DNA of 64,000 bases from Bryobacterales bacterium. Its GTDB lineage: Bacteria > Acidobacteriota > Terriglobia > Bryobacterales > Bryobacteraceae. Below are positions 61,852 to 63,592 of this stretch, piece after piece (position 1 is the stretch's first letter; every line of letters starts with the position of its first letter). The stretch spans positions 16,399 through 80,398 of the forward strand of contig JADJWL010000006.1 in assembly GCA_016716385.1 (NCBI GenBank). The letters are read 5' to 3'. Both the position numbers and the translations under genes were made by a program. The notes beneath the pieces were generated by a model. It was not told where the DNA came from. It saw only the letters and a list, made by a program, of their open reading frames with translations, and made no database searches.

Positions 61852-62244
61852 ATGTCACGGAGTTGGATGTGGCTGCTCGTCCCGGTGGCCTGTGCCGGGC
61901 TGGCGCAGGAGCCTCCCCGGGTGGAGGAACCGCCCGAGGAAGACGAGACCATCGCCGCGCGTGAATACAGCTTCAATCCGCTGCAGGCTGCCAAGGAGTT
62001 GAAAGTAGGCAACTTTTACTTCAAGAAAGGCAACTACCGGGCCGCCGCTCTGCGCTTCGAGGAAGCCGCGAAGTGGGACTCCGGGTTCGCCGACGCCTAC
62101 CAGCGGTGGGGCGAGGCGCTGGAAAAGCAGGATGACGCCAAGGGCGCCGTCGCCGCCTATCGCAAGTACCTGGCAGTCGCGCCCGACGCCAGAAACGCCG
62201 GGGAGATCCGCAAGCGGATCGAAAAGCTTACGCCGCGGAAGTAG
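61852..62244 (+). CDS. small exported TPR-repeat protein
   Basis: Signal 'WLLVPVACAGLAQ' and TPR-like 'GNFYFKKGNYRAAALRFEEAAKWD...AYQRWGEALEKQDD...AVAAYRKYLAV'. Confidence 0.7.
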   Translation: MSRSWMWLLVPVACAGLAQEPPRVEEPPEEDETIAAREYSFNPLQAAKELKVGNFYFKKGNYRAAALRFEEAAKWDSGFADAYQRWGEALEKQDDAKGAVAAYRKYLAVAPDARNAGEIRKRIEKLTPRK

Positions 62245-62803
62245 AACGCCGCTTCAGCAGGCGGCTCAGCGCCGACAGCAGCCGCCGCACGCCCTTCTCC
62301 CAATCCGGAAACAGATCGATGTACTGGGTTTCGCGCTTGATGCGCCGGGGGATCGTGCACGGCTCGAGGCGGAGCGGAAGCAGGAACGCGTCGTCAAGCG
62401 GAAGGCGGCGGGCGCAGTCGAGCGCGTAGCGGATTTCCGACTGGAATGTTCCGCGCTTGCTCGCCGACGCAGTGGAAAATAACAGAGCGGCGAAGTCCGC
62501 CGTCTCGATCGCCTCTTCGATCGCGCGCGGCCAGTTCTGGCCGGGCAGCAGTTTGCGTTTGTCCATCCAGGGATCGAAGCCGGCCGCGGCCAGGGCGTCG
62601 AAGAGGCGGAGTGCGGACGCAGCGTCCTCCTCCACGTAGCCGATGAAGATTCTGGGCCGCTGGATCGAGATGAAGCGGTAGCCTCCGCGCGGCGCCCGTT
62701 CGAAGCGGCCGAGTCCGTCGATCTCGATCCGCCGCCCTTCGCGCAGGAGGTCGCGCAGCAGCGCGGTGACATCGCATTCCGCCAGCGGGTCAGGGCAGCT
62801 CAT
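62228..62803 (-). CDS. TIR-domain protein with short N-terminal HU-arm-like segment
   Basis: TIR_2-like 'RIFIGYVEEDAASALRLFDALAAAGFDPWMDKRKLLPGQNWPRAIEEAIETADFAALLFSTAS..SKRGTFQSEIRYAL', preceded by 'RRIEIDGLGRFER'. GAGGAG lies 4 nt upstream of the ATG. Confidence 0.7.
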   Translation of the reverse strand: MSCPDPLAECDVTALLRDLLREGRRIEIDGLGRFERAPRGGYRFISIQRPRIFIGYVEEDAASALRLFDALAAAGFDPWMDKRKLLPGQNWPRAIEEAIETADFAALLFSTASASKRGTFQSEIRYALDCARRLPLDDAFLLPLRLEPCTIPRRIKRETQYIDLFPDWEKGVRRLLSALSRLLKRRSTSAA

Positions 62804-62993
62804 CGGACTCCTCGAACTCGAAGCGCCAGGCTTGGCCGGGCACGAACTGGCCCAATCCCGGCAGGGGCGCCGCCTGCCCTTTGCGCAGCCGGGCCACGAT
62901 CCGGTTCACGACACGGTCGATGCGGTCGGCGGCCTCGGCCTCGGTCAGGCTGGACTGGCGCGCCAGCCGCCGTGCAAGCGCGGGTTTCTTCAT
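62790..62993 (-). CDS. small HU/IHF-like (truncated HU fold) protein
   Basis: 'MKKPALARRLARQSSLTEAEAADRIDRVVNRIVARLRKGQAAPLPGLGQF' follows the HU helix-helix-beta-arm pattern. At 67 aa it lacks the C-terminal half of HU. It overlaps the TIR gene start by 14 nt. Confidence 0.5.
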   Translation of the reverse strand: MKKPALARRLARQSSLTEAEAADRIDRVVNRIVARLRKGQAAPLPGLGQFVPGQAWRFEFEESDELP

Positions 62994-63120
62994 GGCGTCT
63001 TCAGGCTAGCAGGGGCAGGCAAGCCCGCTGCCTCCGTCCCCCGCCTGGATCAGGCCGGATCCTCAGACTGTTCAAGCAGTTGCCGCCGAACCGGGCTCTC
63101 TCGCAAAGATGTGACCGGGG

Positions 63121-63166: not shown

Positions 63167-63592
63167 ATGAATATTTCGGTTAAGGGCGAGTACGCTCTCC
63201 AGGCGGTGTTCGATCTGGCCGCGCAGCCGGCGGGAACTCCCGTCAAGATCGCCGACATCGCGACCCGTCAGAACATCCCCCAGAAGTTTCTGGAATTGAT
63301 TCTGGCGAGCCTCAAGCAGGGCGGCTTTGTCGAATCCAGACGCGGCGCCGAGGGCGGTTACCTGCTGGCCCGTCCGCCCGCAGCCATTACGGTGGGGGAA
63401 GTGCTACGCTTTTTCGAGGGGGCGCAGAACGGACGGACGCGGGGGCGCCGCAAGACGGATTCTCCTTTCGCAGAGTTATGGCGCCAGGTGGATGACGCGG
63501 TCTCTTCCGTCGTGGACCACGCCACGTTCGCCGATCTGCATCGCCAGTGGACCGAAAAACAGCAGAAGTTCGTGCCGAATTGGGAGATTTAA
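63167..63592 (+). CDS. Rrf2-family transcriptional regulator (CymR/IscR-like)
   Basis: '[15 protein letters not shown]', wHTH '[43 protein letters not shown]'. Confidence 0.88.

What the first reader, a model, noticed from the sequence alone, without database searches (positions are those of the whole stretch)
62228..62993. Two-gene cassette: truncated HU-like protein translationally coupled to an HU-arm/TIR-domain protein
SEEN: on the minus strand a 67-aa ORF follows the HU/IHF helix-helix-beta-arm pattern (LARRLA..LTEAEAADRIDRVVNRIVARLRKGQAAPLPGLGQF). It overlaps by 14 nt a 191-aa ORF that has its own GAGGAG Shine-Dalgarno 4 nt upstream of its ATG. The second protein starts with another short HU-arm-like segment (LLRDLLREGRRIEIDGLGRFER). 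It continues into a clear TIR_2-type domain (IFIGYVEEDA..LFDAL..AGFDPWMDKRKLLPGQNW...IEEAIETADFAALLFST.S..S...FQSEIRYAL), including a Glu at the position where TIR NADases carry their catalytic Glu. The cassette sits between housekeeping genes, converging on a TPR gene with a 17-nt 3' overlap and diverging from rrf2-cysK. No other defence genes are nearby and there is no obvious GC shift. ESTABLISHED: bacterial TIR domains are NAD+-consuming or signal-generating effectors in Thoeris, CBASS/Pycsar-associated and other anti-phage systems. Divergent HU-family domains fused to conflict-system effectors have been noted in comparative-genomics work. INFERENCE: a minimal nucleic-acid-sensing (HU-like) plus NADase (TIR) module that does not match any named architecture I know. 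Both ORFs carry a 'GLGxF' arm, so the pair could also be a tandem-HU-TIR gene split by a frameshift.
Basis: partly seen in the sequence, partly recalled or inferred. Interest (0 to 1): 0.6.

Follow-up and report, generated by a model that had tools for sequence, protein, structure and literature searches.

The report
Split armless HU pair with TIR enzyme
Two overlapping genes encode a tiny, very basic HU-type protein that lacks its DNA-clasping arm and a TIR (NAD-cleaving type) enzyme whose first 50 residues are another piece of the HU fold. The pair is inherited vertically in almost every genus of one family of soil Acidobacteria, so it behaves like a fixed cellular module and not like a mobile phage-defence cassette.

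Summary

New results:
- The small protein equals HU residues 1-56 plus a tail. It has no arm and no alpha3, and it is very basic (median pI 10.8).
- The N-terminal 50 residues of the TIR protein are homologous to HU alpha2-beta3 (hhalign 97%) and lack alpha1.
- The two genes are adjacent in all 101 loci examined. They lie in different frames in 98 of the 100 loci that could be scored, and dN/dS is about 0.1 for both. The frameshift-split idea is therefore rejected.
- The pair is present in 34 of 39 genera of one family (records labelled Bryobacteraceae, Solibacteraceae or Bryobacterales). It is absent from 260+ other genomes of the phylum, from phage and viral collections and from plasmids.
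- Synteny with uvrC/TPR and rrf2-cysK recurs, and divergence tracks that of uvrC.
- No third gene is linked.

Best reading: an obligate split-HU heterodimer that binds nucleic acid and controls the self-association, and so the NAD-cleaving activity, of a SPARTA-like TIR. The biological role (fixed abortive-infection or stress switch, toxin-antitoxin-like pair, or nucleoid signalling) is not resolved. I found no published description of this architecture.

The parts
63003..63011 (-). Extended -10 promoter element TGcTAGCCT, 9 nt upstream of the HU-like ATG. It implies a leaderless or nearly leaderless mRNA.
   Evidence: consensus T(-18)G(-17)nT(-15)A(-14)nnA(-11)T(-10) stands out in a GC-rich background. 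TAnnnT starts at -17..-11 in 84 of 94 distinct loci. There is no conserved Shine-Dalgarno. Searches give the window sequence. Inferred from conservation; not mapped experimentally.
62790..62993 (-). Gene 1: a 67-aa armless HU-like protein. It corresponds to HU residues 1-56 (alpha1, alpha2, beta1, start of beta2) plus a short variable tail.
   Evidence: Pfam PF00216 scores 27 bits, above the 22.4 cut-off. All 71 orthologues tested hit PF00216 and 70 of 71 hit PF18175. The family profile matches residues 1-56 of B. stearothermophilus HU 1hue, E 1.2e-10. Median pI is 10.8. dN/dS is about 0.12.
62808..62813 (-). Shine-Dalgarno GAGGAG of gene 2, lying inside the 3' end of gene 1.
   Evidence: Purine-rich GGAG-like motifs recur 5-12 nt before the TIR start in other genera.
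62790..62803 (-). The 14-nt overlap of gene 1's stop with gene 2's start (translational coupling).
   Evidence: In the 100 loci scored the junction is an overlap of 1-20 nt in 89, and direct abutment or a gap of 1-61 nt in the other 11.
62660..62803 (-). Gene 2, residues 1-48: an HU-derived N-domain (one helix plus three strands, equal to HU alpha2-beta3, with no alpha1).
   Evidence: hhalign of the HU family against the N-domains gives probability 97.1%, E 7.7e-11. MAFFT aligned the two on its own. The AF2 model has helix 12-21 and strands 26-28, 32-36 and 42-46.
62264..62659 (-). Gene 2, residues 49-180: TIR domain of the SPARTA-like type.
   Evidence: TIR_2 E 1.7e-24. Foldseek top hits are the TIR domains of SPARTA TIR-APAZ, e.g. 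8isy_B at 9.7e-7 and 30% identity. The PDB profile search gives the same result.
62435..62437 (-). Codon GAA for Glu123, the catalytic-position glutamate.
   Evidence: It aligns with E77 of the SPARTA TIR-APAZ chains (that E77 is the catalytic residue is from my own knowledge of the SPARTA literature). It is invariant in 94 distinct orthologues.
62228..62803 (-). Gene 2 as a whole (191 aa).
   Evidence: dN/dS is about 0.11.
61852..62244 (+). Convergent neighbour: a small exported TPR protein. It is a syntenic marker, not part of the module.
   Evidence: TPR_2/TPR_19 hits. It lies next to the pair in 12 of 21 genera and 34 of 80 species loci. It is retained where the pair is absent.
63167..63592 (+). 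Divergent neighbour: an Rrf2-family regulator, followed by cysK. It is a syntenic marker, not part of the module.
   Evidence: Rrf2 108 bits. It lies near the pair in 7 of 21 genera and 32 of 80 species loci.

Best explanation
This is a self-contained two-gene operon fixed in the chromosome of one acidobacterial family. Gene 1 makes the helical half of an HU fold (alpha1-alpha2-beta1) with a strong positive charge. Gene 2 makes the complementary sheet-rich half (alpha2-beta1-beta2-beta3, no alpha1), joined by a 4-residue linker to a TIR domain that keeps its catalytic Glu and an invariant BB loop. SHOWN: the folds, the homology of the two HU pieces, the invariant Glu, obligate linkage, coupling, purifying selection, vertical inheritance and the lack of any third linked gene. 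INFERRED: the two HU pieces pair 1:1 as a 'split, armless HU' heterodimer, made in matched amounts by translational coupling. This basic platform binds a nucleic acid or nucleoid ligand. Ligand-dependent clustering or release lets the TIR domains self-associate, which is what switches on TIR NADases such as SPARTA, SARM1 and TIR-STING. The output is NAD+ cleavage. With no linked receptor gene, the TIR is most simply the effector itself, giving NAD+ depletion and growth arrest on infection or DNA stress. On this reading the module is a domesticated, lineage-fixed relative of abortive-infection TIR systems.
For: - Folds and catalytic residue.
- The N-domain is homologous to HU alpha2-beta3: (probability 97.1%).
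- Complementary truncations: the small protein ends at HU residue 56, and the N-domain starts at the position equivalent to HU residue 20.
- The pair is adjacent in 21 of 21 genera and 80 of 80 further species loci, nearly always overlapping.
- dN/dS is about 0.11 and 0.12.
- Distances of HU and TIR co-vary (r 0.75) and track uvrC (r 0.63, p<=5e-4).
- No third conserved neighbour exists.
- The small protein is much more basic than the same part of canonical HU: core charge +4.9 against 0.
- Published precedent: proteins with a single HU-CCDC81 domain are encoded in two-gene operons with a stand-alone HU, read as a heterodimeric unit (PMC5499826).
- The closest solved TIRs are SPARTA NADases, which are activated by oligomerisation on nucleic acid (the activation mechanism is from my knowledge of that literature).
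Against: - No direct evidence of heterodimerisation. The pseudo-fusion model gave good pLDDT, but coordinates and PAE are not available, so the interface could not be read.
- Inter-protein covariation is only weakly enriched for the N-domain (p about 0.02).
- Both HU pieces lack the DNA-clasping arm, so nucleic-acid binding rests on charge alone.
- Near-universal vertical inheritance with stable housekeeping synteny is atypical for abortive-infection systems.
- The pair is dispensable: five genera lack it, one of them with a near-complete two-contig genome assembly.
- NADase activity is untested.
Confidence: 0.4

Rival explanations
1. Toxin-antitoxin-like switch. The small HU-like protein is an inhibitory cap (antitoxin). 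It occupies the HU-type dimer interface of the TIR protein and keeps it monomeric and inactive. When the cap is lost, by proteolysis or a shut-off of host expression, the N-domains homo-associate and the TIR depletes NAD+.
For: The layout is that of type II toxin-antitoxin modules: a small basic protein encoded first, with an overlapping and coupled downstream enzyme gene. The N-domain lacks alpha1, so it may need a partner. NAD+-degrading toxins with cognate antitoxins are known (RES-Xre and MbcT-MbcA; from my own knowledge).
Against: The pair is single-copy, vertically inherited, syntenic, and absent from plasmids, phages and viral contigs. Toxin-antitoxin modules are typically patchy, multi-copy and mobile. 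I know of no HU-fold antitoxin. PADLOC and NCBIfam give no toxin-antitoxin hit.
Confidence: 0.2
2. Domesticated physiological regulator. The split-HU/TIR complex sits on the nucleoid and turns a chromosome state (damage, supercoiling, HU occupancy) into controlled NAD+ turnover or an NAD-derived signal. It has no role in phage defence.
For: The distribution is family-wide and vertical, purifying selection is strong, and the neighbours are stable housekeeping genes that include uvrC. It is not carried on mobile elements.
Against: No receptor for a TIR-made signal is linked. Adjacency to uvrC holds in only about half of the loci, and uvrC-TPR persists where the pair is lost. The pair is dispensable in five genera. 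The TIR clade it belongs to is otherwise found with variable N-terminal modules, which is typical of conflict systems.
Confidence: 0.2
3. An ordinary mobile anti-phage cassette that senses foreign nucleic acid.
For: The TIR domain is closest to defence TIRs (SPARTA, TIR-SAVED, Thoeris models) in PADLOC and the PDB.
Against: It is not patchy: 34 of 39 genera in one family have it and none elsewhere in the phylum. There are no hits in phage, viral-contig or plasmid collections apart from unrelated TIR-only proteins. There is no defence island and no GC shift. Divergence follows uvrC.
Confidence: 0.08
4. One gene broken by a frameshift (a pseudogene or sequencing error), or a spurious small ORF.
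For: Both products carry a GLGxF motif. Two metagenomic representatives read as a single chain.
Against: Of the 100 loci scored, 98 have +1 or +2 offsets of varied overlap length, and two have the same frame with a stop codon. dN/dS is about 0.1 for each ORF. A conserved SD and a conserved promoter are present. The two 'fused' representatives show frame-hopping garbage on inspection.
Confidence: 0.01
5. A non-enzymatic TIR. The TIR serves only as a protein-protein scaffold on an HU-like nucleoid protein.
For: Many TIR domains act as scaffolds. No activity has been measured.
Against: Glu123 and the BB-loop motif GQNW (flanked by near-invariant P87 and P92) are invariant across 94 distinct sequences. 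Glu123 aligns with the SPARTA catalytic Glu.
Confidence: 0.06

Closest known systems
SPARTA / short pAgo TIR-APAZ NADase systems
   Same: They hold the closest solved TIR domains by sequence profile and by fold (27-30% identity). The catalytic Glu is aligned and the C-terminal beta-D/alpha-E region is similar. The logic is also shared: a nucleic-acid-binding partner encoded next to a TIR effector.
   Different: There is no APAZ domain and no Argonaute gene. The partner is an HU fragment. The protein has 191 aa, not about 450. SPARTA is patchy and often plasmid-borne (my own knowledge), whereas this pair is vertically fixed.
Bacterial HU-CCDC81 two-gene operons (stand-alone HU plus single-HU fusion protein; Burroughs et al. 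2017, PMC5499826)
   Same: A stand-alone HU gene lies beside a gene whose product carries one shortened HU domain fused to another module. Both have a truncated clasp and a conserved GXG turn. There are weak to moderate PF18175 matches.
   Different: Those proteins are fused to a TM segment plus LysM or SPOR domains, occur mainly in Bacteroidetes and have less basic clasps, and their stand-alone partner is a full-size HU. Here the fusion partner is a cytoplasmic TIR, the stand-alone protein is truncated and very basic, and the fused HU piece lacks alpha1. The paper never mentions TIR.
Thoeris ThsB and other stand-alone bacterial TIR effectors (AbTir, TIR-STING, TIR-SAVED)
   Same: A TIR_2 fold with a catalytic Glu. 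There are weak profile matches to ThsB, ThcB4 and SAVED-TIR models.
   Different: There is no ThsA, STING or SAVED partner and no conserved third gene. Scores are far below the family cut-offs: ThcB4 scores 28.6 bits against a cut-off of 220.
NAD+-degrading toxin-antitoxin pairs (RES-Xre, MbcT-MbcA)
   Same: A small upstream gene is coupled to an enzyme predicted to consume NAD+.
   Different: The folds are unrelated. Those pairs are mobile and patchy (my own knowledge). Neutralisation has not been tested here.

Membership tests
TIR domain (Pfam TIR_2, PF13676) | Profile match above the curated cut-off | tested here: met
   87 bits against a cut-off of 28, residues 52-176.
TIR domain (Pfam TIR_2, PF13676) | Flavodoxin-like TIR fold | tested here: met
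   AF2 model with pLDDT 78.8. Foldseek gives probability 1.00 to SPARTA, SARM1, PdTIR and MyD88 TIR domains.
TIR NADases | Catalytic glutamate at the start of alpha-C | tested here: met
   E123 aligns with E77 of the SPARTA TIR-APAZ chains. It is invariant in 94 orthologues.
TIR NADases | NAD+ cleavage activity | not testable with these tools
   Needs an enzyme assay.
SPARTA (short pAgo + TIR-APAZ) | APAZ domain fused to the TIR | tested here: not met
   The protein is 191 aa. PADLOC Aga_TIR models match only their TIR part, positions 2-133 of 430.
SPARTA (short pAgo + TIR-APAZ) | Adjacent short Argonaute gene | tested here: not met
   The neighbours are HU-like, TPR, uvrC and rrf2. No other conserved neighbour appears in 21 genera.
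Thoeris | ThsB-type TIR scoring above the family cut-off, plus a linked ThsA effector | tested here: not met
   ThcB4 scores 28.6 bits against a cut-off of 220. ThsB models give E 3e-4. No linked effector is present.
HU/IHF (Pfam Bac_DNA_binding, PF00216) | Profile match above the curated cut-off | tested here: met
   27 bits against a cut-off of 22.4. All 71 orthologues tested match.
HU/IHF (Pfam Bac_DNA_binding, PF00216) | Complete fold of about 90 aa with DNA-wrapping beta-arm and alpha3 | tested here: not met
   Only profile and HU residues 1-51/56 are matched, and the protein ends about 10 residues later. The same genome has three full-length HU/IHF genes scoring 84-115 bits.
HU-CCDC81 bacterial clade (PF18175) | Profile match above the cut-off, and a C-terminal disordered-TM-LysM/SPOR architecture | tested here: not met
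   24.6 bits against a cut-off of 35. The fusion partner is a TIR, and no LysM or SPOR hit was found. The architecture is taken from PMC5499826.
HU-CCDC81 bacterial clade (PF18175) | Two-gene operon of a stand-alone HU with a single-HU fusion protein | tested here: met
   The published description was read.
Type II toxin-antitoxin modules | Small upstream gene overlapping a downstream enzyme gene | tested here: met
Type II toxin-antitoxin modules | Mobile, patchy, often multi-copy distribution | tested here: not met
Type II toxin-antitoxin modules | Toxicity neutralised by the partner | not testable with these tools
   Needs expression assays.

The most novel reading that the evidence does not exclude
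An immune-type TIR NADase has been domesticated as a family-wide, vertically inherited cellular component. A heterodimer assembled from two complementary fragments of the HU fold, a 'split HU' not described before, reads a state of the cell's own nucleoid or of incoming DNA. It converts that state into NAD+ cleavage or an NAD-derived signal.
Probability: 0.2. Interest if true: 0.8.

Novelty: new variant of a known kind. Interest (0 to 1): 0.55.

Why it matters
Bacterial TIR enzymes are known almost only as parts of mobile, patchily distributed anti-phage systems. Here a TIR with an intact catalytic signature has been kept for the whole history of an abundant soil family (562 species-level genomes hold a relative). 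It sits at a stable chromosomal site and is paired with a new kind of partner, two complementary pieces of the HU fold.

If the split-HU heterodimer is real, it would be a new way of building an HU-like unit and a new sensor or adaptor for TIR activation. If the module has a cellular role, it would be a bacterial example of immune-type NADase domestication.

The system is small (67 + 191 aa, no third gene), so it can be tested directly in vitro and in E. coli.

Tried and rejected
- **Frameshift-split single gene:** rejected.
- **Natural fusions:** I searched 1.84 billion representative proteins with a pseudo-fusion query. Only two single-chain hits appeared, and both look frame-scrambled.
- **Complex prediction:** the tool folds one chain only. 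I used locus L111, where the two genes are in frame and separated by one TAG. I read it with TAG=Q and used a block alignment of 94 rows. The model has pLDDT 82 and pTM 0.66. Neither coordinates nor PAE are returned, and Foldseek reports only the TIR part, so the interface stays untested.
- **Alignment artefact:** the first alignment attempt (A2) was unusable. MAFFT laid the HU sequences on the TIR N-domain. That result is itself informative about their homology.
- **Inter-protein covariation:** the mutual-information test was weak and inconclusive.
- **Mobile-element carriage:** IMG/VR, phage and plasmid searches were negative.
- **Literature:** searches found no paper linking HU and TIR.
- **Second copy in one genome (G031):** it carries its own TPR-uvrC flank, so it is more likely a mixed bin than a paralogue.
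Full report
**Observation**

- A 67-aa ORF lies at 62790-62993 on the minus strand.
- Its last 14 nt overlap a 191-aa ORF at 62228-62803.
- GAGGAG (62808-62813) lies 4 nt before the second ATG.
- A small TPR gene (61852-62244, +) converges with a 17-nt overlap.
- An Rrf2 regulator and cysK diverge upstream, and uvrC lies beyond the TPR gene.
- GC content is flat across the region.

**What the two proteins are**

ORF A passes Pfam's HU/IHF model (27 bits, cut-off 22.4). It also matches the HU-CCDC81 and HU-HIG models more weakly. All 71 orthologues tested hit PF00216.

A profile of the family aligns with residues 1-56 of canonical HU proteins, for example 1hue at E 1.2e-10. The protein stops about ten residues later. 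It therefore has alpha1, alpha2, beta1 and the GXG turn, but neither the DNA-wrapping arm nor alpha3.

It is much more basic than the same part of HU. The median pI is 10.8, and the core charge is +4.9 against 0 for HU. The genome also has three full-length HU/IHF genes.

ORF B is a TIR_2 domain (87 bits, residues 52-176). A model built from 18 homologues (pLDDT 78.8) matches TIR domains. The TIR of SPARTA TIR-APAZ is the best match both by fold (8isy_B, 9.7e-7, 30% identity) and by profile. In that alignment Glu123 falls on E77 of the SPARTA chains. That E77 is the catalytic residue is from my knowledge of the SPARTA papers.

Glu123, the BB-loop residues G88-Q-N-W91 (flanked by near-invariant P87 and P92), W79, D81, S110, F120 and R125 are invariant in 94 distinct orthologues.

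Residues 1-48 of ORF B form one helix and three strands. A profile-profile comparison with the ORF A family gives 97.1% probability (E 7.7e-11) over HU positions 20-65. MAFFT made the same alignment unprompted. The N-domain is therefore an HU remnant that lacks alpha1.

The shared 'GLGxF' is the conserved turn after beta1, not the arm.

**Two genes, not one broken gene**

I extracted the pair from 20 other genera and from 80 further species genomes.
- The HU-like ORF lies directly upstream of the TIR ORF in every case. One locus is cut by a contig end.
- Of the 100 loci that could be scored, the junction is an overlap of 1-20 nt in 89, and direct abutment or a gap of 1-61 nt in the other 11.
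- The frame offset is +1 or +2 in 98 of the 100 loci. The other two have the same frame with a stop codon between the genes.
- For pairs of loci with 75-97% TIR identity, median dN/dS is 0.11 for the TIR gene and 0.12 for the HU-like gene.
- A search of 1.84 billion representative proteins with a pseudo-fusion query found only two single-chain candidates. Both show frame-hopping sequence on inspection.

**Distribution and inheritance**

- A full-length orthologue is present in 32 of 37 genera sampled from the window's own family and in none of 24 genomes from two sister families. In G014 the gene is split across two contig ends, and in G008 it carries one in-frame stop.
- In a phylum-wide sample of 301 genomes and 186 genera, only the three family members have it. 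That brings the total to 34 of 39 genera.
- In GTDB species representatives, 562 stretches encode a relative. The best 80 are all labelled Bryobacteraceae, Solibacteraceae, Bryobacterales, Ca. Solibacter or Sulfopaludibacter, apart from generic labels and one 'Rhodospirillales' bin.
- The arrangement uvrC<-, TPR->, <-TIR, <-HU, rrf2->, cysK-> recurs. TPR and uvrC are adjacent in 12 of 21 genera and 31-34 of 80 species loci. rrf2 lies within the fetched flank in 7 of 21 genera and 32 of 80 species loci, usually with cysK.
- Pairwise distances of the TIR protein correlate with those of UvrC (Mantel r 0.63, p<=5e-4). Distances of HU and TIR correlate with each other (r 0.75).
- No other gene is linked to the pair across genera.
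- There is no match in IMG/VR viral contigs or in phage genomes. Plasmids hold only TIR-only proteins at 42% identity or less.
- Three family genomes that lack the pair, one of them a near-complete two-contig assembly, keep TPR-uvrC with other genes next door. The pair is therefore dispensable.
- In a tree of TIR domains, the pair's TIRs form one clade. It sits among TIRs with other N-terminal modules: TPR, unknown domains, triple TIR, FGE-sulfatase, TM.

**Expression signals**

Anchoring 94 distinct loci on the HU-like ATG shows a conserved extended -10 box, T(-18)G(-17)nT(-15)A(-14)nnA(-11)T(-10). TAnnnT starts at -17..-11 in 84 of 94 loci, and there is no conserved Shine-Dalgarno. In the window the box is TGcTAGCCT at 63003-63011.

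This predicts a leaderless or nearly leaderless mRNA for gene 1. Gene 2 would be translated from its own SD inside gene 1. This is an inference from conservation.

**How it most likely works**

The two truncations are complementary. The small protein keeps both helices but little sheet. The N-domain keeps the sheet but only one helix. It is joined to the first TIR strand by four residues.

Burroughs et al. (PMC5499826) describe bacterial proteins with a single shortened HU domain. These are encoded in two-gene operons with a stand-alone HU, read as a two-subunit equivalent of a tandem HU.

By analogy I infer an obligate 1:1 'split HU' heterodimer made through translational coupling. Its strong positive charge suggests nucleic-acid binding despite the missing arms.

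TIR NADases are switched on by self-association (SPARTA, SARM1 and TIR-STING; established knowledge). The simplest mechanism is therefore that the HU-type module controls clustering of the TIR on or off a nucleic-acid ligand, with NAD+ cleavage as the output. No receptor gene is linked, so the TIR is probably the effector itself.

I put 0.4 on this general mechanism. The role remains open:
- a fixed abortive-infection or stress switch (part of the best explanation);
- a toxin-antitoxin-like cap (0.2);
- a domesticated nucleoid-state regulator (0.2).

An ordinary mobile defence cassette (0.08), a scaffold-only TIR (0.06) and a broken gene (0.01) are disfavoured.

**Limits**

- Heterodimerisation is not shown. 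The pseudo-fusion fold (L111 read with TAG=Q) has good local confidence, but no coordinates or PAE are returned, and Foldseek sees only the TIR.
- Covariation between the two proteins is at best weakly enriched for the N-domain (42 of the top 100 pairs against 32 expected, p about 0.02).
- Activity, DNA binding and expression are untested.

**Comparison and novelty**

This is not SPARTA: there is no APAZ domain and no Argonaute. It is not Thoeris: there is no ThsA, and scores are far below cut-off. It is not a member of the described HU-CCDC81 architectures: there is no TM, LysM or SPOR, and the score is below cut-off. It works most like a nucleic-acid-partnered TIR effector.

I found no paper describing an HU-TIR pair. 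Earlier agents of this scan met orthologous pairs in four other genomes and reached similar readings. Those notes are not independent evidence, and I re-derived each point here.

Noticed in passing
window 63003-63011 (-), and the same position in 84 of 94 related loci: A conserved extended -10 box (TGnTAnnAT) ends 9 nt before the HU-like ATG. There is no conserved Shine-Dalgarno and no conserved -35. This predicts a leaderless or nearly leaderless transcript.
   Followed up: partly
L113 (G031:C35:33900-40500) versus L014 (G031:C15): One genome bin holds two copies of the whole HU-TIR / TPR / uvrC locus on different contigs (TIR 49% and 57% identical to the window's). The uvrC of the second copy is split into two frames. 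This is more likely a mixed bin (4% contamination) than a true paralogue.
   Followed up: partly
G008:C36:27937-28470: The TIR orthologue in this genus carries one in-frame TAA, so it is possibly a pseudogene. Together with the five genera that lack the pair, this shows the module can be lost.
   Followed up: no
L070 (JBLNCW010000091.1): A record titled 'Rhodospirillales bacterium' carries a typical pair (55% identity). It is 91% identical in TIR sequence to an 'Acidobacteriota' bin from a different record, L100. The bin is probably mislabelled or mis-binned.
   Followed up: no
window ORF B residues C130 and C149 (also C108 in most orthologues): Two cysteines flanking alpha-C and beta-D are 97-99% conserved in the family, and a third is 98% conserved. 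Their role (structural, redox or metal) is unknown.
   Followed up: no
window ORF A residues E20 and W56 versus ORF B residues T119, S122 and I124: The strongest inter-protein mutual-information pairs link two HU-like positions with residues flanking the catalytic Glu123. With about 70 effective sequences this may be a phylogenetic artefact.
   Followed up: partly
window 62790-62810 (C-terminal tail of ORF A): The window's small protein has an acidic tail (EESDELP, net charge -4). Most orthologues have basic Gly/Arg/Lys tails (mean +2.9, up to +8).
   Followed up: partly
window 62132-62482 (+) and other long antisense ORFs: A 116-aa ORF antisense to the TIR gene recurs in 18 loci. This is the expected by-product of a GC-rich conserved coding region, not a gene.
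   Followed up: partly
L115 (G197:C21) and L116 (G016:C225): The nearest TIRs without an HU N-domain are fused to other modules. One is TIR-TM-carboxypeptidase-regulatory-like (308 aa, from another family of the phylum). The other is TIR-FGE-sulfatase-like (418 aa). Both share the LLPGQ(D/N)W loop.
   Followed up: partly
window 62228-62244: The 17-nt convergent overlap of the TIR and TPR genes is not conserved. For example, L013 has a 10-nt gap.
   Followed up: partly
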